From sequence record NC_048205.1: a DNA stretch of 64,000 bases; one strand, 5' to 3'. The notes beneath the pieces were generated by a model, which saw nothing but the letters and a program-made list of their open reading frames with translations, was not told the origin of the DNA and made no database searches. Of this stretch, positions 24,321 through 58,916 are shown one piece after another (the stretch's first letter is position 1; every line of letters begins with the position of its first letter). Made by a program: the position numbers and the translations under genes. The stretch is from Escherichia phage vB_Eco_mar004NP2.

Positions 24321-24558
24321 ATATTCATAAATTAGAGAACAGCGAGCCGATTACGCTGAACTTGTCTTAATGTAAGATGCGTCAAGCACTAAGATTCGTT
24401 GAATAGAGTCGGTGGGTTAGTTGTAAAACTAGTACACAGGGGGCGGCAATCCCGGTTAGTGGCTAGAACGTGTAAAATGAGGCGTCTGAAACCTCTCCCC
24501 TAAACTCTTCTCTAATTTATAAATAGTGGGGTGTGGAAATCACTTATGTAGTAACACT

Positions 24559-24630
24559 GCCGTCCTAGTATAATTGGTATTATCAAGCCGTAACTGGTGG
24601 AAGATGTAGGTTCGAATCCTACGGTCGGTA
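24559..24630 (+). pseudogene. tRNA-like element lacking a foldable anticodon arm (possible tRNA pseudogene)
   Basis: Acceptor-like pairing GCCGTCC/GGTCGGT and perfect T-arm GTAGG-TTCGAAT-CCTAC but no anticodon stem; no CCA. Confidence 0.3.
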
Positions 24631-25132
24631 AGAACTGGATAACTGATGCTTTTAACGTAAAAGCTTCCGAGGTTAGTTGCGCACTGCCTAAACCACGCGG
24701 TAGTTGGTTCCAGACTAACCAACCAGTCTGCTGAATAGTTTTATTACGATTTAACTATGCCCAGGCTAAAGAAGAACTTTAGAAGGTATTCTAGGGTAGT
24801 GAAGTTCTTTCTCCATATCGGAGTAGTTTTTCAAGCTATCCACAAAGTGGGAAATGCTGACATGAGAGATGTCACTAATGGTGCACAATAGCACAGGTAA
24901 TTCGCGATAACTCCTGTTGAGTAGCAGCAAAAGGTGGGAAGTCATGACCCCAAGCCTAACCGAGTCCTCAATATACCGCAGGACATAACCACTAAGTCAC
25001 CCTGACTTAAACTGGAAAATAATAGACGTTACCGTATTTTGTCTTGAAATACTTAATGAGTGAGACTTATGACTCTCCCGGTATCGTCTGTATTTTTAAG
25101 AGTTTTTACGAGAGTTCTTAAAAATACTTAAA

Positions 25133-26920: not shown

Positions 26921-26998
26921 GGTTCTCAAGCTCATATGGTATGAGCACCCGGCTCATAACCGGAAGGTACGTAGGTTCGAATCCTCGGGGAGCCACCA
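26921..26998 (+). tRNA. tRNA with CAT anticodon (Met, fMet or Ile2)
   Basis: AC loop CTCATAA; acceptor with two G-U pairs; T-stem imperfect. Confidence 0.5.
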
Positions 26999-27763: not shown

Positions 27764-28039
27764 ATGCAAAATCGTGTTGTAGCAACTGGTATTGAAAGTG
27801 CAATCTGTAAATCCTGGGAAGGCTGGGAAGGTGAGATTGAATGGCTTTATTTCTATGATGTAGAACTTCTACCGGAAGTTAAAGCTAAATGTATTGAAGC
27901 TGGCATGGCTCCAGATGCAAAAGCTGATATTGATATTTTAATGTCTGAACTTAAAGGTCGTGTAGTTACCGTTAGTAATGAGGGCGAAGAAGTTTTCGAA
28001 CTTCCGTTTTCCTTAACTGTCACTCCTAAGTTCGACTAA
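27764..28039 (+). CDS. hypothetical protein
   Basis: ORF with GGAGGAG RBS and promoter. Confidence 0.6.
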   Translation: MQNRVVATGIESAICKSWEGWEGEIEWLYFYDVELLPEVKAKCIEAGMAPDAKADIDILMSELKGRVVTVSNEGEEVFELPFSLTVTPKFD

Positions 28040-28075
28040 CTAATACAGCACTGAGCAAGTTCTTTAAAATTTGAC

Positions 28076-28104
28076 TTGCTCAGTGCCTTAAAACTTGATA
28101 TAAT
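28076..28104 (+). promoter_or_regulatory. T5-type promoter driving the tRNA-Tyr/Glu/Trp/Phe block
   Basis: -35 TTGCTC / 17 bp / -10 TATAAT. Confidence 0.55.
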
Positions 28105-28121
28105 AGTTATCTAATTCGGAA

Positions 28122-28170
28122 ACATATTTAAAAGTGTTTAAACTAGTATTTGAATACTTTTAAATATGTT
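28122..28170 (+). other. 15-bp-stem palindrome immediately upstream of and overlapping the tRNA-Tyr 5' end
   Basis: AACATATTTAAAAGT ... ACTTTTAAATATGTT perfect inverted repeat. Confidence 0.6.
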
Positions 28171-28258
28171 GGATTAGTATCGTAGAGGTAGCGAAGCAGA
28201 CTGTAAATCTGCCGACTCGGAAGGGTCTCGGGTGGTTCGACTCCATCATCCAACACCA
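28168..28258 (+). tRNA. tRNA-Tyr (anticodon GTA), type II
   Basis: Acceptor GTTGGAT/ATCCAAC, AC loop CTGTAAA, long variable arm, CCA. Confidence 0.7.
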
Positions 28259-28265
28259 AATTTAA

Positions 28266-28342
28266 GTCCTGTTAGACAAACTGGTAAAGTCACTACCCTT
28301 TCAAGGTAGGGTTTGCGGGTTCGATCCCCGCACAGGACCCCA
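28266..28342 (+). tRNA. tRNA-Glu (anticodon TTC)
   Basis: Acceptor GTCCTGT/ACAGGAC, AC stem CTACC/GGTAG loop CTTTCAA, T-loop TTCGATC. Confidence 0.7.
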
Positions 28343-28351
28343 ATTAATAAT

Positions 28352-28422
28352 TGGGGTACGCATAGGTTGCAAATGGGCCTCCAAAACCCATGAAAAGGTT
28401 TCGAATACCTTTACCCCTGCCA
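28352..28422 (+). tRNA. tRNA-Trp (anticodon CCA), short D-arm
   Basis: AC loop CTCCAAA, perfect T-arm AAGGT/ACCTT, 3' end CCCCTGCCA; U1-U72 mismatch and short D region. Confidence 0.5.
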
Positions 28423-28428
28423 AAATTT

Positions 28429-28503
28429 GCACCTTTAGCTGAGATGGATTAGCGCTTGCCTGAAGAGCTTGAGAGGTTCGTTCGATACGAACAGGGTGCA
28501 CCA
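28429..28503 (+). tRNA. tRNA-Phe (anticodon GAA), tentative
   Basis: Acceptor GCACCTT/AGGGTGC, D-arm GCTG/TAGC, AC loop CTGAAGA with weak stem, T-arm GTTCG/CGAAC. Confidence 0.5.
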
Positions 28504-28520
28504 AATTGAAGGAGATGCTG

Positions 28521-28790
28521 ATGCATCCTGAAAACTTCTTTATTTACTGCGCGGATAAGTCGCTGAAACGTAGAATTAACAAAGTCTATCATTATCGTGT
28601 TAGTCAACAGCCTTATGTATACGCTTTTGACGGTGATCACATTTCATTAGAACAATTATCTTGTGATTACATGATATTGAAGAACTTTGACGAGACGAAG
28701 ATCTCAAGCGTTCACAATCGACAGAATCCATTAACGTGGAAATATAAGAAAAAGAAAGGCATCAAATTCTTAAAAAATGTAGTTGCTTAG
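28521..28790 (+). CDS. hypothetical protein
   Basis: ATG 6 nt after AAGGAG; begins right after tRNA-Phe. Confidence 0.5.
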   Translation: MHPENFFIYCADKSLKRRINKVYHYRVSQQPYVYAFDGDHISLEQLSCDYMILKNFDETKISSVHNRQNPLTWKYKKKKGIKFLKNVVA

Positions 28791-28811
28791 TTTCCAAAAG
28801 TTCTGTATAAT
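28783..28811 (+). promoter_or_regulatory. T5-type early promoter
   Basis: -35 TTGCTT / 17 bp / -10 TATAAT. Confidence 0.6.
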
Positions 28812-28840
28812 AAATACATAAATTGAACTGGAGAAGCAAC

Positions 28841-29059
28841 ATGACAGAACAAGAATTGAATGAACGTAAGCTAGTAATGCTTCGCTTACTAAATATTTTC
28901 TCTGGTATGGACGGTGGTGGTGATTTCTTAAGACTTAAGGTATTTACAGAAACTGCCGAAGGTGATGCAATCTCTAGAGTTATTAGGAACATGGGAAGCC
29001 TGCTAGATGTGGCTGGAGTAGCTACTCAATACACCTTAGATAATCCTACTGGAGAATAA
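28841..29059 (+). CDS. hypothetical protein
   Basis: ATG at 28841 with GGAGAAG RBS and promoter. Confidence 0.55.
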   Translation: MTEQELNERKLVMLRLLNIFSGMDGGGDFLRLKVFTETAEGDAISRVIRNMGSLLDVAGVATQYTLDNPTGE

Positions 29060-29251
29060 ATGAGAAGATTAGTTAGATTTAAGTGTTGTAGTTCTGAACA
29101 TATTTTCACACATCTTCGTGAATTTAAAATGTGTGATTGTGGTAAATCAGGCTATGACTCTGGAAATGGGTTCTACACCCGTACTCTAGGGAACTTCAAT
29201 GATTTAGAATTTGAAGATCTCGAAAAACAAGATAAACCGACCGTTGGCTGA
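29060..29251 (+). CDS. hypothetical Cys-rich protein
   Basis: CC...CDC motif; 3' end overlaps tRNA-Cys. Confidence 0.45.
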   Translation: MRRLVRFKCCSSEHIFTHLREFKMCDCGKSGYDSGNGFYTRTLGNFNDLEFEDLEKQDKPTVG

Positions 29252-29313
29252 ATGGCTTAGGCGAAGGATTGCAAATCCTTTTTATGTGAGTTCAAATCTC
29301 ATGCGGTCGTCCA
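29238..29313 (+). tRNA. tRNA-Cys (anticodon GCA)
   Basis: AC stem AAGGA/TCCTT loop TTGCAAA; T-loop TTCAAAT; CCA; overlaps 3' end of upstream ORF. Confidence 0.7.
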
Positions 29314-29334
29314 AATTACTAAAGGAAAGAAGTA

Positions 29335-29853
29335 GTGCATACAAAAGTTTTTGATAGTTTGGTAAAGAAAGGCGTTGTTACTAACGAGCCCTTCTATATA
29401 ACCGCAGAACTAATCCAGAGATTTATGGAAGAATATATAAATCTTTCAGGAACCAATGGTAATACCAAAAAGAATACAAATACTATGTATTCGAGAAAAC
29501 TTGCTGCACTTTCCTTTATAAAGTTTAAGCAGGAAAATAAACTTCCTATTTCTGAAGGTTTTGTATACTGTATTAGTAATCCTGCATGGAAAAATCAGTA
29601 TAAAATAGGTATGAGTCAAAATCCAAAAGAGAGATTAGCTCAATATCAGACTTATTCCCCTTATAGGGATTATAAGTTAGAGCATTGGTCTTTTTGGTTT
29701 GACAAACGAAAAGGTGAAAAACTAATTCACCAGTATTTCAAAGATTTAAAAGAACATGAGTGGTTTAGTATAAATTCTAGGGATCTTAGTAAATATCTAG
29801 AACGTATTAACTCTAGTTCTGACTTATATGGTTCCTTAGCTCTAATTGGTTAG
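29335..29853 (+). CDS. T5orf172-domain protein
   Basis: 172 aa; GFVYCISNPAWKNQYKIGMSQNPKERL matches the T5orf172 family signature as recalled; GTG start after AAAGGAAAG; 3' end overlaps next tRNA. Confidence 0.6.
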   Translation: MHTKVFDSLVKKGVVTNEPFYITAELIQRFMEEYINLSGTNGNTKKNTNTMYSRKLAALSFIKFKQENKLPISEGFVYCISNPAWKNQYKIGMSQNPKERLAQYQTYSPYRDYKLEHWSFWFDKRKGEKLIHQYFKDLKEHEWFSINSRDLSKYLERINSSSDLYGSLALIG

Positions 29854-29908
29854 AGCGGCATCTTGTTAAGTTGAGGGTTGCTGGATTCGAATCCAGCAGG
29901 AACCGCCA
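29830..29908 (+). tRNA. tRNA-Asn (anticodon GTT), tentative
   Basis: Acceptor GGTTCCT/AGGAACC, D-arm GCTC/GAGC; weak AC stem; T-loop one nt longer than canonical. Confidence 0.45.
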
Positions 29909-30010
29909 AATTCTGTGTAGAGTTAAGTAAACCGGTAGCCAACCAGCTATCATTGCTGACATCGAATTCAGCCATAGATACCATTTTCGTTAATAACTGA
30001 GGAAACAAGC

Positions 30011-30196
30011 ATGTCCAAGAATGTAATTGCGCAGCTAGAAGTTCATCGTGATAGCACTATCAACAATATTGAAGTTGAGAAGAAATACATAGAAGAACTT
30101 AAACATGATATACTGGTAAGTCTCAACCGTCTTAATGTACGAAAAGAGTTTCTTAAAGAACTTAATGCAGCTATTGAAAAACTCAAAGCTGAGTAA
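30011..30196 (+). CDS. hypothetical protein
   Basis: ORF with GAGGAAA RBS. Confidence 0.5.
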   Translation: MSKNVIAQLEVHRDSTINNIEVEKKYIEELKHDILVSLNRLNVRKEFLKELNAAIEKLKAE

Positions 30197-30205
30197 ATGA
30201 ATTAT

Positions 30206-30282
30206 GCGACCGGGGCTGGCTTGGTAATGGTACTCCCCTGTCACGGGAGAGAATGTGGGTTCAAATCCCATCGGTCGCGCCA
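30206..30282 (+). tRNA. tRNA-Asp (anticodon GTC)
   Basis: Acceptor GCGACCG/CGGTCGC, AC stem CTCCC/GGGAG loop CTGTCAC, T-loop TTCAAAT. Confidence 0.75.
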
Positions 30283-30299
30283 AATAAGGTAGGTTAGCT

Positions 30300-30458
30300 A
30301 TGGAACGTAGGGAGTTTACTCCAGAAGAGATAGAGCAGATAAAAGAATCTGCTATGAAAAATGCTAGAATATCTCTGTCACTGGAAGGTATCATTATTAG
30401 TGATGTAAACTTTGAAAAAATCAAAGCCATAGCTGATGAACTGGAAAAAGTAATTTAA
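30300..30458 (+). CDS. small hypothetical protein (52 aa)
   Basis: Unlisted ORF MERREFTPEEIEQIK... with AAGGTAGG RBS between two tRNAs. Confidence 0.4.
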   Translation: MERREFTPEEIEQIKESAMKNARISLSLEGIIISDVNFEKIKAIADELEKVI

Positions 30459-30459
30459 T

Positions 30460-30535
30460 ACATCCATAGCTCAATGGTTAGAGCTACCGCCTCTTAAGCG
30501 GAGGGTTCTAGGTTCAAGTCCTAGTGGGTGTACCA
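30460..30535 (+). tRNA. tRNA-Lys (anticodon CTT)
   Basis: D-arm GCTC/GAGC, AC loop CTCTTAA, T-arm CTAGG/CCTAG. Confidence 0.6.
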
Positions 30536-30561
30536 AATTAAACTAGCACGAGAAATATGCT

Positions 30562-30909
30562 ATGATTAATGCTAAAGAAGAATTGTTACTTGCCCTAAAG
30601 AATACTAATTCTGAAGTTAAGTGTATTAAGATAGAATTCGGTTATTATGGGGATAAAGAAGTTTGGGTATTACCCGTAGGTTATACAGAAAAAGATATTG
30701 AAGATTTTCTAGATAATCTAGACTTTAAATATGATTCTGGTTTCGGCGGACAATTGCTTTATGGTAACGTATGGTTTACCGATGGAACTTGGTTAGAACG
30801 TGGTGAATATGATGGTTCTGAATGGTGGGAATATAAGACTACACCAGCAATCCCAGAAGAATGCCGAACAATTAATGGTGAAGTAGATCGTACTTTACTA
30901 TTAAATTAA
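30562..30909 (+). CDS. hypothetical protein
   Basis: 115-aa ORF, weak RBS. Confidence 0.5.
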   Translation: MINAKEELLLALKNTNSEVKCIKIEFGYYGDKEVWVLPVGYTEKDIEDFLDNLDFKYDSGFGGQLLYGNVWFTDGTWLERGEYDGSEWWEYKTTPAIPEECRTINGEVDRTLLLN

Positions 30910-31031
30910 CAAAATTTCAGTGCAGAACACGGAGCTAGCAATTCGGAAGTGCTGACTCATGATAAGCTGCCTATGTACTTGCGAAGCGGTCGTGTCCAAG
31001 ACTCGGACTCTTGCACTGAAAACAATCAAAC

Positions 31032-31152
31032 ATTCTAGCGTGGTTGATGGGGAAACCAGCTTGGCGAGGGCAGAAGCTCGTTCGATTCGAGTGAAAGAAT
31101 GGTTCTCGTAAGTCCGCACAAGTGATAACAGGTTCGAGTCCTGTCTAGAATG
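31032..31152 (+). ncRNA. 121-nt tRNA-like structured RNA (extra arms between acceptor and T-arm)
   Basis: Perfect 7-bp acceptor ATTCTAG/CTAGAAT, D-like hairpin TGGTT/AACCA, perfect T-arm ACAGG-TTCGAGT-CCTGT, internal extra hairpins. Confidence 0.3.
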
Positions 31153-31301
31153 ACACTATAAAGTTTACTTATTATGTAGGTTCCGATAGACCGGCGGGTC
31201 TATTCTAGCATTTAAGAGAGGTCTCGCAAACTTCTTTGTCAGCCGTGGGGTTGGTAGCCTCCAGGTGGCCTACACAATAAGTAAATTTATTAAAAATTCA
31301 T

Positions 31302-31330
31302 TTGCTATTCTGCTTTATTATCTGTATAAT
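31302..31330 (+). promoter_or_regulatory. T5-type early promoter
   Basis: -35 TTGCTA / 17 bp / -10 TATAAT. Confidence 0.6.
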
Positions 31331-31362
31331 ATATTTTATAAAGTGAAGAGAAGGAAAGCAAA

Positions 31363-31521
31363 ATGAAACACAAGATAGCTCAAGTTTTTATGGCATTATG
31401 GTGTATACCAATAGCTATAACAGCATTTAATCTAGATACTTTTACTATAGAAGAAAAATGTATCGGATTAGTTAGCGGTTTTAGTATGCTGGGCTTATCT
31501 TTGCTGTGGTTAAAGAAATAA
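31363..31521 (+). CDS. small hydrophobic protein (52 aa)
   Basis: Unlisted ORF MKHKIAQVFMALWCIPIAI... with strong RBS after promoter. Confidence 0.45.
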   Translation: MKHKIAQVFMALWCIPIAITAFNLDTFTIEEKCIGLVSGFSMLGLSLLWLKK

Positions 31522-31525
31522 TATT

Positions 31526-31603
31526 CTCCGTGTAGCTCAGTTTGGCCAGAGCGTTTCGTTTGGGGCGATAGGGTCGGGGGTTCAAATCCTCCCACGGAGA
31601 CCA
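31526..31603 (+). tRNA. tRNA-Pro (anticodon TGG)
   Basis: Acceptor CTCCGTG/CACGGAG, AC loop TTTGGGG, T-loop TTCAAAT. Confidence 0.7.
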
Positions 31604-31609
31604 AACAAT

Positions 31610-31687
31610 TGCGGGTTAGATCTCTGGTAGAGATCGCTAGTCTCATAAGCTAGAAAGAGGTAGGTTCGATTCCTGCACCCGCTTCCA
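31610..31687 (+). tRNA. tRNA with CAT anticodon (Met, fMet or Ile2)
   Basis: D-arm GATC/GATC, AC stem CTAGT/GCTAG loop CTCATAA; U1-U72 mismatch. Confidence 0.6.
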
Positions 31688-31707
31688 CTTTAATAGAGGA
31701 TTTCGAA

Positions 31708-31875
31708 ATGAAAGTATTTCGATTAGTAGTAAGTGACAAACGTTTAGGTAAGAATACCTCAAAATCCTTACTTGCTCATTATGGAAAAGATGATAAAGAA
31801 GTAATGGCGGAGTTTGGGATTAATCACCCTTACTTGAAAGTTCACTCTATTAAAGAAGTATATAATGGTTACTAA
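31708..31875 (+). CDS. small hypothetical protein (55 aa)
   Basis: Unlisted ORF with AGAGGA RBS between tRNAs. Confidence 0.4.
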   Translation: MKVFRLVVSDKRLGKNTSKSLLAHYGKDDKEVMAEFGINHPYLKVHSIKEVYNGY

Positions 31876-31876
31876 T

Positions 31877-31955
31877 AGATCGCTAGCTCAATAGGTTTAG
31901 TAGCATCCGACTTTTAATCGGAAGGTTCTGGGTTCGAGTCCCAGGCGATCTACCA
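31877..31955 (+). tRNA. tRNA-Lys (anticodon TTT)
   Basis: Acceptor AGATCGC/GCGATCT, AC stem TCCGA/TCGGA loop CTTTTAA, T-arm CTGGG/CCCAG. Confidence 0.75.
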
Positions 31956-31973
31956 ATTTCAAGAAAAACGCAG

Positions 31974-32002
31974 TTGCTTGATACTTAATTTCTTGTTATA
32001 AT
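31974..32002 (+). promoter_or_regulatory. T5-type early promoter followed by hairpin and untranslated segment
   Basis: -35 TTGCTT / 17 bp / -10 TATAAT. Confidence 0.6.
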
Positions 32003-32240
32003 ATTTATATAAATTGATGAGGATTTCTCCTCATCATAGTTCACTAAGGTATTAGCTCGACCTAGGACTGGCTGCCAAAAAGCACGATCCCTACGATTCG
32101 GGAGGAGTTCTAGATTAGTCCACTAGATTCAGCGGCAACTGAATAGTGTATTGGGTTTGCGAGATGACGCGGTTCCTTCCGCTCGAAGCGAAGGTGCTGT
32201 AGTTACGCCGAGCTAATAGCCTTAGTAAACTAAAGAATTT

Positions 32241-32319
32241 GGGGGATGGGTCTGCTAGGGGTGGACACCTCGCTTGCACCGAGGACATCAGAACGATTCG
32301 AATTCGTTATCCTCCACCA
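32241..32319 (+). tRNA. tRNA-Ala (anticodon TGC)
   Basis: AC stem CCTCG/CGAGG loop CTTGCAC; G3-U70 pair present; 7-nt variable loop. Confidence 0.6.
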
Positions 32320-32324
32320 AATAC

Positions 32325-32401
32325 GCGTGATTGATGGAATTGGCATACATACCGTCCTTAGAAGTCGGGTTTTGAGGGTTCGAATCCCTTGTCACGCACC
32401 A
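32325..32401 (+). tRNA. tRNA-Leu-like, anticodon TAG, type-I length
   Basis: AC loop CTTAGAA; Leu-type D-arm ATG/CAT with GAATTGGCATA loop; short variable loop; A73. Confidence 0.5.
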
Positions 32402-32526
32402 AATTTGATGGTCAGAGTAAATTAAACCTACTATCTCGGTTGAGCTGTTTTAATGGGTTCGAATCCCAGCGAGGCGTAACTGCCTGGTGTGATAGAGGCA
32501 TCATTCCACTAACATTGGAAAAACTA

Positions 32527-32757
32527 ATGAAACGAAAATTAAAAAAGTCTTATATAATTAAGATAAATAAGCTACGAAGTAGGGCAAAAGGATGGCCACT
32601 TCGAATATTAATTGCGGATAACCATACTAGATACCATGCGGAACAACGTCATTACAAACAGTGGGAGTCATACTGCCGCTCAAAAGCAGGTCGTTTAGAT
32701 GGATCTTATGAGTTTCTATTTGGTAAGAAGCCTACTAGAGTAGCTTTAGGTAATTAA
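32527..32757 (+). CDS. hypothetical basic protein
   Basis: In-frame ATG within track ORF 32389-32757, downstream of tRNA-like fragment. Confidence 0.45.
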   Translation: MKRKLKKSYIIKINKLRSRAKGWPLRILIADNHTRYHAEQRHYKQWESYCRSKAGRLDGSYEFLFGKKPTRVALGN

Positions 32758-32762
32758 TACTT

Positions 32763-32853
32763 GGAAGAGCAAATCGAATTGGCGACGAAAACCGCTTGGA
32801 AAGTGGCTGACTGGTAAAACGGCTTGAGAGTTCAAATCTCTCCTCTTCCGCCA
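32763..32853 (+). tRNA. tRNA-Ser (anticodon GGA), type II
   Basis: Acceptor GGAAGAG/CTCTTCC, AC loop TTGGAAA, long variable arm, T-arm GAGAG/CTCTC. Confidence 0.65.
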
Positions 32854-32865
32854 AACAATTTATAT

Positions 32866-32960
32866 GGTAGGTCAATCCAACGGCTGGCGCTGGACTCCGA
32901 CTTGAAATCGGTTGATCGTAGTGATACGGTGTAAGGGTTCGATCCCCTTACCTACCTCCA
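32866..32960 (+). tRNA. tRNA-Ser (anticodon TGA), type II
   Basis: Perfect acceptor GGTAGGT/ACCTACC, AC loop CTTGAAA, long variable arm. Confidence 0.65.
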
Positions 32961-32965
32961 AATCT

Positions 32966-33096
32966 TGGAATATGCCGGAATTGGTAGACGGGACTGCCGA
33001 ATAGGTTTACTAGGAACATCCACTCCTAGAAATATACCTTAAAAGCGGTTGAGTTAAATGGTCTAACTCATGAAGGTTCAAGCCCTTCTATTCCTT
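32966..33096 (+). pseudogene. tRNA-Leu-like gene (type II) interrupted by about 40 nt in the anticodon loop
   Basis: Acceptor GGAATA/TATTCC, Leu D-arm GCCGGAATTGGTAGACGGG, AC stem ACTGC/GCGGT enclosing 47 nt ending CTTAAAA, hairpin variable arm, T-arm GAAGG-TTCAAGC-CCTTC; no CCA, U73. Confidence 0.3.
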
Positions 33097-33210
33097 GATA
33101 CATCAATGGCTCAAAGTGTAACGGTGCTATTTGATGCTCTTGGAAAGACTTTCCCGACATGCGTTCGGGGGTAAGCTTCTGAGGCTAGAATAGAAGAGTT
33201 TCTGAGAGCC

Positions 33211-33330
33211 GCCACAATTGAAAATTCGTACTCGTCTTGAGCTGCGTGCAATAGGAGATAACTTGATTAGTATTCTAGAACATGCTAATTGAGGATGGTT
33301 TCGCTAACCCTGCGAGTTTTCAATTGTGGC
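33211..33330 (+). other. 18-bp inverted repeat whose 3' arm overlaps the tRNA-His 5' end
   Basis: GCCACAATTGAAAATTCG (33211-33228) vs CGAGTTTTCAATTGTGGC (33313-33330), 17/18 complementary. Confidence 0.55.
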
Positions 33331-33403
33331 TATATCATAATTGGTTAATGATCCTGATTGTGAATCAGGCCTATGTGGATTCGAATTCCACTAGCCACCC
33401 CCA
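33326..33403 (+). tRNA. tRNA-His (anticodon GTG)
   Basis: Acceptor GTGGCTA/TAGCCAC, D-arm TCAT/ATGA, AC stem CCTGA/TCAGG loop TTGTGAA; C-rich 3' tail. Confidence 0.7.
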
Positions 33404-33428
33404 AATTAACTTAAATAGGAAATAAAAT

Positions 33429-33623
33429 ATGGCTGATTTCTGCAAACAATGCTCCATTGATATGTGGGGCAGAGATACTGGTGATCTTTCTGGGCTGATT
33501 ACAGAAGCCGAAGTCAAAGAAGGTTATGGTGCAGTTGTGGTTTGTGAAGGATGCGGAGTCATTCGAGTAGATCATGAGGGTAAGCGCCTTGAAGAACCTG
33601 AGCCAGTTACCCTATTTCCCTAA
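33429..33623 (+). CDS. hypothetical zinc-ribbon-like protein
   Basis: CxxC...CxxC pairs; RBS AGGAAA. Confidence 0.5.
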   Translation: MADFCKQCSIDMWGRDTGDLSGLITEAEVKEGYGAVVVCEGCGVIRVDHEGKRLEEPEPVTLFP

Positions 33624-44555: not shown

Positions 44556-44584
44556 TTGCTTTTTGCTAAAAATTTTGGTATAAT
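44556..44584 (+). promoter_or_regulatory. T5-type early promoter
   Basis: -35 TTGCTT / 17 bp / -10 TATAAT. Confidence 0.6.
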
Positions 44585-53766: not shown

Positions 53767-54000
53767 AGCGCAGGGCAATTGCCCTGCGCTAAATACGAAT
53801 GATAATGAGAATCATTCGTATTTAAAAAGCGGAATAAGAATGATAATAGTTCTCATTTAGAAAGTGAAATGAGAATCAATCTCATTTAAGAAAGGGAATG
53901 AGAACTATTCAAAAAATGAAATGATTCTCATTTAAAAAATGGAATGATTATCGGTTAGATAGTGAAATGCGAATGATAATGATTCTCATTTAAGAATGGA
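53767..54000. repeat. cluster of palindromic repeats (GCGCAGGGCAATTGCCCTGCGC and repeated AATGAGAATCATTCTCATT-type units)
   Basis: Perfect 22-bp palindrome at 53767-53788, then at least 6 copies of an inverted-repeat unit; related copy near 54320. Confidence 0.75.
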
Positions 54001-54083
54001 AGCGAGAAACACTATTATTTAAGTTACCCACAGACTTATTAACAGCACGATTTGATTTGACAGAATCCTAGCCATTTTGAGGC

Positions 54084-54128
54084 GTTATCAACAGACTTAT
54101 CCACAGCTTATCCTACTGTATAAATATA
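54084..54128. promoter_or_regulatory. DnaA-box cluster and left arm of inverted repeat
   Basis: TTATCCACA at 54097-54105 plus near-match TTATCAACA; segment is reverse complement of 57608-57649. Confidence 0.6.
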
Positions 54129-54389
54129 CAGTATTCCTACGCAGTGAATAATTCTAATATAGCGTTAAAACGTCCTAAATCGCATTCTAACGCGCTTAAT
54201 TTTGATGGGGATACTAAAACAAGGGCAAAATTGGAGGAGGCTTAAAAATTAGTTAGCTTGCTAACGATCACACAAGGCGACACGTAACACCCTAATCATT
54301 AGCAGGCTAACCATCACGGGCGCGGTTAAATGAGAATCACTCTCATTTGAGAATTGGGGGCACTCCCTGGTAGTTGCGCCCCGTTATTA

Positions 54390-58069: not shown

Positions 58070-58482
58070 AGGCTAGAATGCGCCTAAAACGCCCTATAAC
58101 GCGATGAAGTTTTTAGCCATGCCATTGCATTGCCTACCCTCGTTTATCGCTACCACGAGCTTTTTAGTTTTTGTCAAGTAGGGCAAGGCAAATATAAATG
58201 AAAAAATTACTTGCCAACCTGCTGGGTTTTATGGTATTCGCGCGCCCGTTTCCTTTAATTTTAGTGCGCCGCGCCCAGGTCGCCGCACGGTGTCCGGTGG
58301 CATTTTGTCTTTACGTTTCTTTACAAAAATAAGGTTGCGCCATTTTTACTATTTGCTATTATTTATCTCGTAGGGCGGCAATGACGAACTACACGGCGGG
58401 AAGTTTACCGCCGCGCTCTTTAAAAATTGGGTACATCTTAAAGTCTATCGGCGGTAAACTTATATTATAAGGAATCGCAGAT

Positions 58483-58686
58483 ATGAAACAAACTTTATTG
58501 ATCACTGGTAAACCAGCTAAAAAATTAGATGGTACTACTAAAAAATTGTTGACAATAGCCCAGCAATCCGTAAAATACCGATTTGCTCAGTACAAGAAAG
58601 GCCGCCAGCAGGGTTTAGAAATGATCTGGCGTAATATTATGATCGACCTGAAAGAAAATCATAAAAAACTGCAAAAAACAGTTTGA
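58483..58686 (+). CDS. hypothetical basic protein
   Basis: 67-aa ORF with AAGGAA RBS. Confidence 0.5.
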   Translation: MKQTLLITGKPAKKLDGTTKKLLTIAQQSVKYRFAQYKKGRQQGLEMIWRNIMIDLKENHKKLQKTV

Positions 58687-58916
58687 CACCCTAGCCGATA
58701 GGCTTTAAGATGTACCCAGTTCGATGAGAGCGATAACTTGATACAATTTGACGGTTAGGTGATTCCCCATAAATCATCCTGCCCCCTAACTGGGATATAG
58801 CAGCCTGCGTGGAGTTCCTTAAATTGATTATAGCGGTGAGCGGATTGTTGCTTATTACCTGCTACTTTCTAGCAGGTAATGCGGAACAATCCCCTAAATA
58901 ACTTGGAGTTTATACT

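What the first reader, a model, noticed from the sequence alone, without database searches (positions are those of the whole stretch)
28122..33330. Long inverted repeats sequestering tRNA 5' ends
A 15-bp perfect stem overlaps the 5' end of tRNA-Tyr (28122-28170), and an 18-bp inverted repeat 85 nt apart overlaps the 5' end of tRNA-His (33211-33330). A hairpin GATGAGGA-TTTC-TCCTCATC also starts the transcript at 32025-32044. These may be RNase III or RNase P processing determinants, or elements timing tRNA maturation.
Basis: seen in the sequence. Interest (0 to 1): 0.4.

Follow-up and report, generated by a model that had tools for sequence, protein, structure and literature searches.

The report
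Processing helices beside phage T5 tRNAs
The inverted repeats are real RNA helices in the tRNA operons of a T5-like phage, and the largest is the closing stem of 'stable RNA III', a gene annotated in phage T5 records, so the finding is mostly already known, though how the helices direct RNA cutting is untested.

Summary
The window is a T5-like phage, 100% identical to Salmonella phage EH4. All three inverted repeats exist and exceed chance, but the third hairpin lies at 32016-32035, not 32025-32044.

- **tRNA-His repeat (33211-33228 / 33313-33330).** It is the closing helix of stable RNA III (33219-33324), annotated in the T5, BF23 and DT571/2 GenBank records. In the precursor it extends 8 bp outward, pairing the CCA-CAAU tail of stable RNA I with U-1 and G1-C5 of tRNA-His. 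Across nine variants and six cassette types, 97% of helix positions pair and 10 of 20 pairs show compensatory changes.
- **tRNA-Tyr repeat.** It is the leader hairpin of the promoter P14a transcript. It is conserved, but its overlap with the tRNA is not.
- **Third hairpin.** It heads the promoter P13b transcript, just upstream of annotated stable RNA 2H. It pairs a ribosome-binding-like GAGGA, inherited from a repeated promoter-leader cassette, with its complement.

The annotated ends of RNA III and RNA 2H lie inside long helices and leave 2-nt 3' overhangs. Folding energetics predict that the tRNA-His acceptor stem forms only after the outer arm is cut away. I therefore favour host RNase III processing, but this is untested. 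Novelty is low.

The parts
28076..28104 (+). Promoter P14a: -35 TTGCTC (28076-28081), 17-nt spacer, TG-extended -10 TATAAT (28099-28104). Predicted transcript start about 28110-28112.
   Evidence: Read from the sequence. The homologous stretch is annotated 'promoter 14a' in the BF23 tRNA region. The tRNA-Tyr promoter of the T5-like phage SP15 was shown to be strong (PMC11555353).
28121..28170 (+). Leader hairpin of the P14a transcript: 22-bp A/U-rich stem (15 bp perfect, 2 G-U pairs) with a 6-nt loop. Its last 3 nt are nt 1-3 of tRNA-Tyr. In the minimum-energy fold, 28111-28118 also pairs with 28171-28177.
   Evidence: -20.4 kcal/mol, z = -7.4. Conserved in 12 variants in a short form (50-52 nt) and a long form (111 nt), with 92% of helix positions paired.
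28168..28258 (+). tRNA-Tyr (GTA), with CCA encoded.
   Evidence: ARAGORN; Rfam tRNA.
31974..32002 (+). Promoter P13b: -35 TTGCTT (31974-31979), 17-nt spacer, -10 TATAAT (31997-32002). It is one of six copies in the window of the cassette TATAATATTTATATAAATTGATGAG.
   Evidence: 6 copies, 0 expected by chance. Annotated 'promoter P13b' in BF23 and T5.
32016..32035 (+). 5' hairpin GAUGAGGA-UUUC-UCCUCAUC (9 bp counting 32015/32036). It pairs the ribosome-binding-like GAGGA of the promoter-leader cassette with its complement.
   Evidence: Variants in other phages keep the stem through G-U pairs and one compensatory change (GGGGA/UCCCC in L032), and have the loop as GAAA.
32050..32221 (+). Homologue of stable RNA 2H (172 nt). 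Its closing helix is 32037-32059 / 32209-32232. tRNA-Ala follows at 32241.
   Evidence: Annotated rna2H in DT571/2, BF23 and T5; coordinates mapped by sequence. Helix; end geometry.
32964..33107 (+). Homologue of RNA1 ('tRNA-like RNA with unknown functions'), derived from tRNA-Leu. Its anticodon loop is replaced by a roughly 47-nt extension. The start coordinate is approximate.
   Evidence: BF23 and T5 annotation. Acceptor and anticodon stems covary in the alignment.
33108..33214 (+). Homologue of stable RNA I (107 nt): GGCUC...GAGCC-G-CCA, with a tRNA-like 3' end.
   Evidence: Annotated rnaI. 99.7% identical to DT571/2 over window 33105-33404.
33211..33228 (+). 5' arm of the 18-bp helix. It comprises GCCA (the end of RNA I), the CAAU spacer, and the first 10 nt of RNA III.
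33219..33324 (+). Homologue of stable RNA III (106 nt). Its 5' and 3' ends pair with each other.
   Evidence: Annotated rnaIII in DT571/2, BF23 and T5. The annotated ends lie inside the helix and leave a 2-nt 3' overhang.
33313..33330 (+). 3' arm of the helix. It comprises the last 12 nt of RNA III, U33325 (position -1 of tRNA-His) and G1-C5 of tRNA-His.
33326..33403 (+). tRNA-His (GTG). G33326 is G1 and pairs with C33398. Position -1 is U, not G. The 3' tail reads CCCCA, one C more than in relatives.

Best explanation
The three repeats are helices in the polycistronic transcripts of tRNAs and stable RNAs of a T5-like phage.

What each one is (shown):
- **33211-33330.** The closing helix of the known stable RNA III. 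In the precursor it is lengthened by 8 bp, which tie the 3' tail of stable RNA I (GCCA-CAAU) to U-1 and G1-C5 of tRNA-His.
- **28121-28170.** The leader hairpin of the P14a transcript. It ends at the 5' end of tRNA-Tyr.
- **32016-32035.** A hairpin at the head of the non-coding P13b transcript (RNA 2H, tRNA-Ala, tRNA-Leu).

How they probably work (inferred):
- The long helices fold each spacer or leader into a self-contained double-stranded module. Host RNase III cuts that module with a 2-nt stagger.
- The cut releases RNA III (and likewise RNA 2H). RNA I is left with a 4-nt trailer for exonuclease trimming to CCA. tRNA-His is left with a 1-nt leader.
- Until the outer arm is cut away, the 5' acceptor strand of tRNA-His stays in the helix. 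Helix cleavage would therefore precede cloverleaf folding and final 5' maturation.
- For tRNA-Tyr the hairpin belongs to the promoter-leader unit. Its overlap with the tRNA in this phage is incidental.
- The short P13b hairpin probably keeps ribosomes off a leftover ribosome-binding-like sequence and caps the 5' end of the transcript.
For: **Identity**
- The window is 100% identical to phage EH4 and 85-100% identical to hundreds of T5-like phages.
- The stretch 33105-33404 is 99.7% identical to DT571/2, where rnaI, rnaIII and tRNA-His are annotated. BF23 and T5 carry the same annotation.

**Helix under selection**
- Nine distinct variants in six cassette types, including a phage of another subfamily (DU_PP_V), keep 97.2% of helix positions paired. 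Ten of 20 pairs show changes on both sides. No shuffle out of 500 reached these values, and versions with the 3' partner slid by 1-3 columns pair only 31-47%.
- In L035 the body of RNA III is deleted, yet a 13-bp stem with a compensatory G:C to A:U change remains.

**RNA on the + strand**
- The helices contain many G-U pairs.
- The + strand folds better than the - strand: -45.4 against -31.8 kcal/mol for RNA III, and -20.4 against -13.5 for the Tyr leader.

**Cleavage geometry**
- The annotated 5' ends of RNA III and RNA 2H pair with the nucleotide 2 positions before the annotated 3' end. Both ends lie inside helices that continue outward.

**Ordering of maturation**
- In the RNA I-RNA III-tRNA-His precursor the helix has probability 0.96 and the acceptor stem about 4e-7. 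With the 5' end placed at 33219, the acceptor stem has probability 0.86.

**tRNA-Tyr leader**
- The hairpin is present in all 12 variants, with 92% of positions paired. It precedes three different tRNA-Tyr sequences and, in DT571/2, a tRNA remnant.

**P13b hairpin**
- The promoter-leader cassette occurs 6 times in the window. Of the five other copies, four run on through a GAGG-type ribosome-binding sequence (GAGAGA in one) into an ATG shortly after, and the fifth (44579) reaches an ATG only much further on. Only the P13b copy is followed by the complement of its GAGGA.

**Precedent**
- E. coli RNase III takes part in the maturation of phage T4 tRNAs (PMC4810235).
Against: - I found no experimental end mapping, and I could not establish whether the annotated ends of RNA III and RNA 2H were measured or inferred. 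The third annotated helix-closed RNA, RNA IV, gives a 1-nt rather than a 2-nt overhang.
- In L035 the stem is only 13 bp. That is short for a canonical RNase III substrate, so the helix must have some value apart from RNase III.
- Seven of the outer 9 pairs never vary among the nine variants. One of the two that do vary does so only by single-sided changes and a mismatch. The pairs formed by CCA and G1-G4 are constrained anyway by the function of RNA I and of the tRNA, so pairing with the tRNA itself is not proven by covariation.
- Energy models ignore tRNA tertiary structure, base modification and co-transcriptional kinetics.
- The both-sided changes in the Tyr leader all come from a single split between the short and long forms.
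- Ribosome-site masking by the P13b hairpin is inference only.
Confidence: 0.55

Rival explanations
1. The helices are purely structural. They give the excised stable RNAs and leaders a compact, exonuclease-resistant shape. Processing is done only by RNase P (5' ends of the tRNAs and of RNA I), RNase E (A/U-rich trailers such as CCA-CAAUUG) and 3' exonucleases. Any overlap with tRNA 5' ends is incidental.
For: - Every tRNA in the cluster has a CCA-AAU-type trailer, which is typical of RNase E and exonuclease maturation.
- CAA|UUG next to the annotated RNA III 5' end resembles an RNase E site (consensus from PMC5222698, listed; I did not read that paper in detail).
- The overlap with tRNA-Tyr is not conserved.
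- RNA IV does not show the 2-nt overhang.
- The 13-bp stem in L035 is a poor RNase III substrate.
Against: - E. coli has no 5'-to-3' exonuclease, and RNase E needs single-stranded RNA. Yet the annotated 5' ends of RNA III and RNA 2H lie inside helices predicted to be almost fully formed (probability 0.96).
- The helix is retained in L035 after the RNA III body was lost, which is hard to explain if it served only RNA III stability.
Confidence: 0.3
2. The repeats are DNA-level features. They could be boundaries or scars of cassettes inserted or exchanged at a palindromic site (GCCA-CAATTG-TGGC), cruciform or protein-binding sites, or recombination hot spots in the deletion-prone tRNA region.
For: - Six different cassettes occupy exactly the same site between the same flanks. 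Each arm contains the palindrome CAATTG.
- The tRNA region of T5 is a known hot spot for repeat-associated deletions (PMC12483538).
- The loop of the P13b hairpin is inverted in this phage relative to all others, TTTC against GAAA, which is a DNA-level event.
Against: - G-U pairs, which would be mismatches in DNA and on the other strand, are frequent. The + strand folds much better than the - strand.
- The window holds no other copy of the arm sequence, so it is not a multi-copy mobile element.
- Cassette types B, E and F share inner-stem sequence, and type D is a deletion derivative of type C. That points to descent with compensatory change rather than repeated insertion.
Confidence: 0.08
3. 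The repeats are chance matches in A/T-rich sequence, or they are intrinsic terminators or attenuators.
For: - The Tyr hairpin is almost entirely A/T.
- The pattern scan lists the 32015-32036 hairpin as terminator-like on the - strand.
Against: - Perfect repeats of at least 14 nt number 5 observed against 0.17 expected.
- Folding z-scores are -3.8 to -7.4.
- The helices are conserved and show covariation.
- No U-tract follows any of the three on the + strand. Overall terminator-like counts are at the chance level, 10 against 8.2.
Confidence: 0.02

Closest known systems
rnaIII, rnaI, rna1 and rna2H genes of phage T5, BF23 and DT571/2 (GenBank AY692264, NC_042564, KM979355; 'stable RNA with unknown functions')
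   Same: Same position (rna1, rnaI, rnaIII, then tRNA-His; P13b, rna2H, then tRNA-Ala). The sequence is 99.7% identical to DT571/2 over rnaI-rnaIII-tRNA-His. The lengths are the same: 107, 106 and 172 nt.
   Different: These genes are not annotated in this phage (EH4). The records give no structure, no processing pathway and no function. The outward extension of the RNA III helix into RNA I and tRNA-His, and the P14a leader hairpin, are not annotated features.
RNase III processing in the phage T4 tRNA cluster, with its co-transcribed stable RNAs
   Same: A phage tRNA operon whose precursor carries extra stable RNAs of unknown function, and where host RNase III contributes to tRNA maturation (PMC4810235). 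From memory, the T4 cut lies just upstream of the first tRNA (tRNA-Gln) and is needed for its production.
   Different: There is no sequence relationship. The RNase III dependence of the T5-type helices is untested. In T5-type phages the helix encloses a whole stable RNA and bridges two neighbouring RNAs.
RNase III processing stems of bacterial rRNA operons and phage T7 early transcripts
   Same: Long helices formed by sequences flanking a stable RNA, cut with a 2-nt 3' overhang, followed by trimming of the neighbouring RNAs (established knowledge). The geometry matches the annotated ends of RNA III and RNA 2H.
   Different: The helices here are 18-22 bp and enclose 84-170 nt, not kilobases. 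In one variant (L035) only 13 bp remain.
5'-terminal stem-loops and hairpins that sequester a ribosome-binding site in bacterial and phage transcripts
   Same: The P13b hairpin lies about 7 nt from the predicted transcript start and pairs GAGGA with UCCUC.
   Different: No gene is being regulated. The downstream RNA is non-coding, so the pairing would silence a leftover ribosome-binding sequence rather than control translation.

Membership tests
T5 stable RNA III gene (rnaIII) | Lies between rnaI and tRNA-His in the tRNA region of a T5-like phage | tested here: met
   The order RNA1-like, RNA I, RNA III, tRNA-His lies at 32964-33403. It matches the gene order in T5, BF23 and DT571/2.
T5 stable RNA III gene (rnaIII) | Sequence homology to the annotated rnaIII | tested here: met
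   99.7% identity to DT571/2 over window 33105-33404. The RNA III segment (the stretch from RNA I's GAGAGCC to the start of tRNA-His) is identical in window, BF23, T5 and DT571/2.
T5 stable RNA III gene (rnaIII) | Accumulates as a discrete stable RNA of about 106 nt in infected cells | not testable with these tools
   This rests on the database note 'stable RNA'. I could not retrieve any primary paper.
RNase III processing site | Double-stranded helix of about two turns (roughly 20 bp) | tested here: met
   20 contiguous pairs at 33211-33230 / 33311-33330. 22 pairs at 28121-28170. 17 + 5 pairs close RNA 2H. Exception: only 13 bp in L035.
RNase III processing site | Mature ends inside the helix, staggered to give a 2-nt 3' overhang | tested here: inconclusive
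   Met for the annotated ends of RNA III and RNA 2H; RNA IV gives 1 nt. Whether the annotated ends were measured is unknown.
RNase III processing site | Cleavage depends on RNase III (rnc), in vivo or in vitro | not testable with these tools
   No data were available.
RNase III processing site | Absence of antideterminant base pairs in the proximal and distal boxes | not tested
   I did not have the rules at hand in verifiable form.
Intrinsic (Rho-independent) terminator | G+C-rich hairpin followed by a U-tract on the transcribed strand | tested here: not met
   No U-tract follows any of the three helices on the + strand. The scan lists only the 32036-32015 hairpin, and only on the - strand, with a weak tail.
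Miniature inverted-repeat transposable element | Several copies bounded by the same terminal inverted repeats | tested here: not met
   The arm CACAATTGAAAATTCG occurs only at the two arms themselves. One 3-mismatch hit elsewhere is at the chance level.
Any curated Rfam family other than tRNA | Covariance-model match | tested here: not met
   At E-value up to 1, nothing matched in 28105-28167, in the RNA 2H region or in 32957-33325.

The most novel reading that the evidence does not exclude
The conserved helix places a staggered double-strand cut exactly between positions -2 and -1 of tRNA-His. The phage tRNA-His would then mature with an extra 5' nucleotide (pU-1) made by RNase III rather than by the usual bacterial route, in which an encoded G-1 pairs with C73 and shifts the RNase P cut.

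Observations that allow this reading:
- The gene has U, not G, at -1 in every T5-like sequence examined.
- The T5, BF23 and DT571/2 records start tRNA-His at that U.
- The annotated RNA III 3' end is the nucleotide just before it.

If true, maturation and histidine identity of this tRNA would be coupled to cleavage of the RNA III helix.
Probability: 0.15. Interest if true: 0.55.

Novelty: already known. Interest (0 to 1): 0.25.

Why it matters
The value is mainly for annotation. T5-like genomes such as EH4 are deposited without the stable RNA genes (RNA1, RNA I, RNA III, RNA 2H, RNA IV, RNA X) that fill the 'empty' gaps of the tRNA region. Some records place spurious ORFs over them.

Biologically, the comparative data show that selection keeps the helix joining RNA I, RNA III and tRNA-His even when the body of RNA III is replaced or deleted. 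That makes a processing role the testable hypothesis for at least part of these RNAs, whose function is listed as unknown. T5 tRNAs are now known as counter-defence tools (tRNA-Tyr against retron Eco7, tRNA-Lys against PARIS), so how their production is ordered and controlled has some practical interest.

Tried and rejected
- **Literature.** Six full-text searches found no primary paper on T5 RNA I or RNA III, their end mapping, or the -1 nucleotide of T5 tRNA-His. The older papers on the T5 tRNA region are evidently outside the searchable library.
- **Rfam.** Only tRNA hits were returned.
- **Mobile-element idea.** Rejected, because the arm sequence is single-copy.
- **Terminator or attenuator idea.** Rejected, because there is no U-tract and overall counts are at chance.
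- **First impression of the Tyr hairpin.** I initially thought it was absent from some phages (L013, L023). That was an artefact of extracting too little upstream sequence. Those phages carry a long form of the same helix.
- **Indexing error.** A first thermodynamic run for tRNA-His used a wrong pairing register (His part). It was corrected. The Tyr part stands.
- **Klebsiella Sugarlandvirus.** It carries only the RNA1-like element with no tRNA-His next to it, so it was uninformative for the helix.
- **IMG/VR motif scan.** A scan with an RNA I motif returned the same roughly 27 T5-like genomes and no deeper diversity.

Full report
**What the window is.** The region 27900-33600 is 100% identical to Salmonella phage EH4 (Demerecviridae, Epseptimavirus). 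It matches 564 T5-like phage records. It belongs to the tRNA-gene region: ARAGORN finds 21 tRNA genes between 25.1 and 35.0 kb, all on the + strand, and Rfam adds a few that ARAGORN missed. EH4's own annotation shows only tRNAs and small hypothetical ORFs here. It leaves 32957-33325, 31956-32240 and 28040-28167 empty.

**Checking the observation.** All three repeats exist.
- The tRNA-Tyr repeat has 15-nt perfect arms at 28121-28135 / 28156-28170. They extend to 22 pairs with two G-U pairs and a 6-nt loop.
- The tRNA-His repeat is 33211-33228 / 33313-33330. It has 18 pairs, one of them G-U, and 84 nt between the arms.
- The hairpin GATGAGGA-TTTC-TCCTCATC lies at 32016-32035, nine bases to the left of the coordinates given.
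- They are not chance. The window has 5 perfect inverted repeats of at least 14 nt within 400 nt, against 0.17 in dinucleotide shuffles. Folding z-scores are -7.4, -6.7 and -3.8.

**What the tRNA-His repeat is.** A distant BLAST of 32957-33405 hit phage DT571/2, whose record annotates 'rnaI', 'rnaIII' and tRNA-His under the match. The annotated BF23 tRNA region and the T5 genome say the same. From 5' to 3' they list:
- rna1, 'tRNA-like RNA with unknown functions', 144 nt;
- rnaI, 'stable RNA with unknown functions', 107 nt;
- rnaIII, also 'stable RNA', 106 nt;
- tRNA-His.

Mapped onto the window through the 99.7% identical DT571/2 sequence, RNA I is 33108-33214. It runs GGCUC...GAGCC-G-CCA, a tRNA-like end. 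RNA III is 33219-33324 and tRNA-His begins at 33326. These extra pairs form between GCCA-CAAU (the end of RNA I and the spacer) and AUU-GUGGC (the last two nucleotides of RNA III, U-1, and G1-C5 of tRNA-His).

**Is the helix selected?** I collected the segment from 37 loci (IMG/VR scans; GenBank fetches). The sequence between the RNA I CCA and tRNA-His comes in five types in Markadamsvirinae, from 42 to 147 nt between the outermost pair. A sixth type occurs in Pectobacterium phage DU_PP_V, which belongs to another subfamily.
- All types are closed by the same kind of helix. On nine distinct variants, 97.2% of helix positions pair, and 10 of 20 pairs show changes on both sides. No shuffle out of 500 reaches this, and registers slid by 1-3 columns pair only 31-47%.
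- L035 changes G:C to A:U in the CAAUUG core. DU_PP_V changes U:A to G:C in the otherwise invariant outer part.
- In L035 the body of RNA III is gone, and only a 13-bp stem with a 16-nt loop remains. Selection therefore acts on the helix itself, not only on RNA III.
- Frequent G-U pairs and a much better fold of the + strand (-45.4 against -31.8 kcal/mol) place the helix in RNA made from the tRNA strand.
- The arm sequence has no other copy in the window.

**The tRNA-Tyr repeat.** It lies between a promoter (TTGCTC, 17 nt, TGaTATAAT at 28076-28104) and tRNA-Tyr. The promoter is annotated as P14a in BF23. The tRNA-Tyr promoter of the T5-like phage SP15 was shown to be strong, and that tRNA counteracts retron Eco7 (PMC11555353).
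- Twelve variants of the leader fall into a short form (50-52 nt) and a long form (111 nt, with an internal domain). Both are closed by a 22-bp helix, and 92% of positions pair.
- The both-sided changes all stem from the single split between short and long forms, so covariation evidence is weak.
- The two pairs that reach into the tRNA are broken in 5 of 12 variants.
- The hairpin precedes three different tRNA-Tyr sequences. In DT571/2 it precedes a tRNA remnant that ARAGORN does not recognise.
- The hairpin therefore belongs to the promoter-leader unit. The overlap with the tRNA in this phage is not the conserved feature.

**The third hairpin.** It sits about 7 nt into the transcript of promoter P13b (annotated in BF23 and T5) and 14 nt before stable RNA 2H. 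RNA 2H is 172 nt at window 32050-32221, is itself closed by a 17 + 5 bp helix, and is followed by tRNA-Ala.
- The promoter and the first 20 transcribed bases (TATAATATTTATATAAATTGATGAG) form a cassette present six times in the window, against none expected.
- Of the five other copies, four run on through a GAGG-type ribosome-binding sequence (GAGAGA in one) into an ATG shortly after. The copy at 44579 reaches an ATG only much further on.
- Only at P13b, where no ORF follows, is GAGGA followed by its complement.
- Variants keep the stem through G-U pairs and one compensatory GGGGA/UCCCC change.
- The loop reads GAAA everywhere except in EH4 and this window, where it is inverted to TTTC.
- I infer that the hairpin silences a leftover ribosome-binding sequence and caps the 5' end of the transcript. 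This is inference only.

**Mechanism.** Two results bear on it.
- First, on the BF23 sequence the annotated 5' nucleotides of RNA III and of RNA 2H pair with the nucleotide two positions before the annotated 3' end. Both ends lie inside helices that continue outward. That is the geometry RNase III leaves. E. coli has no 5' exonuclease and RNase E needs single strands, so a 5' end in the middle of a stable duplex points to RNase III. RNA IV gives a 1-nt overhang, and I could not find out whether these ends were measured.
- Second, in the RNA I-RNA III-tRNA-His precursor the helix has probability 0.96 and the tRNA-His acceptor stem about 4e-7 (ddG +9.1 kcal/mol). With the 5' end placed at 33219, the acceptor stem has probability 0.86. 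For tRNA-Tyr the penalty is 3.4 kcal/mol.

Cutting the helix would release RNA I (with a CAAU trailer), RNA III, and tRNA-His (with a 1-nt leader) in a single step. RNase III involvement in phage T4 tRNA maturation is a published precedent (PMC4810235).

The caveats are the 13-bp variant, the unverified ends, and the limits of energy models.

**A side observation.** G33326 pairs with C33398 as G1:C72, so position -1 is U33325. The gene lacks the encoded G-1 that is typical of bacterial tRNA-His (established knowledge).
- This U is present in all relatives.
- The T5, BF23 and DT571/2 records begin tRNA-His at this U, giving 78 nt.
- A staggered cut of the helix would create exactly that end.

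This is the most novel reading the data allow, and it is speculative.

**Verdict.** It misses that the main repeat is the stem of an already annotated stable RNA gene, and that the other two belong to promoter-leader units. The objects are already known, their function is still listed as unknown, and the RNase III model is a testable inference rather than a discovery.

Noticed in passing
window 33325-33403: The tRNA-His gene has U, not G, at position -1: G33326 is G1 and pairs with C33398. This holds in every T5-like relative examined, including DU_PP_V. The T5, BF23 and DT571/2 records start tRNA-His at that U (78 nt), directly after the annotated RNA III 3' end.
   Followed up: partly
window 33398-33403: The 3' end of tRNA-His reads C72 followed by CCCCA: five Cs in a row where all relatives have four (C72, C73, CCA). 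This is either a real 1-nt insertion shared with the EH4 record or a homopolymer sequencing error.
   Followed up: partly
window 32964-33107: A tRNA-Leu-derived 'RNA1' (annotated as tRNA-like in BF23 and T5). It has the D arm, a long variable arm, the T arm and an acceptor stem, but the anticodon loop is replaced by a roughly 47-nt extension and no CCA is encoded. The acceptor and anticodon stems covary across phages. A relative exists in Klebsiella Sugarlandvirus (L066) without a neighbouring tRNA-His.
   Followed up: partly
window 928 (-), 27728, 31997, 34423, 36562, 44579: Six copies of one early promoter-plus-leader cassette (TATAATATTTATATAAATTGATGAG), with 0 expected by chance. Four of the five other than 31997 run through a GAGG-type ribosome-binding sequence (GAGAGA in one) into an ATG shortly after; 44579 reaches an ATG only much further downstream.
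   Followed up: partly
window 32024-32027: The loop of the P13b hairpin is TTTC here and in EH4 but GAAA in every other T5-like phage examined. The centre of the palindrome has been inverted.
   Followed up: no
window 31161-31288, 24322-24525 and 25090-25127: More helix-closed non-coding RNAs lie in the same region. RNA IV has 20-nt arms and its annotated homologue is 103 nt (about 31174-31276). A 21-nt repeat sits at the start of RNA X, right after its promoter. A perfect 12-bp hairpin ends 6 nt before tRNA-Arg (25133).
   Followed up: partly
window 28048-28086: A perfect 13-bp inverted repeat (GCACTGAGCAAGT / ACTTGCTCAGTGC) lies just after the upstream ORF's stop codon. Its 3' arm overlaps the -35 element of promoter P14a. 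It has no U-tract, so it is not a typical terminator.
   Followed up: no
window 29830-29905, 26921-26995, 24559-24630, 32866-32956, about 28350-28428: Rfam tRNA matches that ARAGORN missed: tRNA-Asn (GTT), overlapped at its 5' end by the T5orf172/GIY-YIG-like ORF 29335-29850; a second tRNA after tRNA-Ser; one inside RNA X; and tRNA-Ser (UGA), scored as tRNA-Sec below the gathering threshold. An apparently degenerate tRNA-Trp lies between tRNA-Glu and tRNA-Phe; I read it by eye only.
   Followed up: no
window 53767-54339 and 58401-58718: Two clusters of perfect 12-16-nt inverted repeats, for example AATGAGAATCATT repeated several times and TGGGTACATCTTAAAG with 16-nt arms 260 nt apart. They are far above the chance level and their nature is unknown.
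   Followed up: no
L035 (IMGVR_UViG_2974499565) and L057 (Pectobacterium phage DU_PP_V): L035 has lost the body of RNA III but keeps a 13-bp stem with a compensatory change. DU_PP_V, from another subfamily, keeps RNA1-like, RNA I-like, a 20-bp helix and tRNA-His, but the RNA III interior is unrelated.
   Followed up: yes
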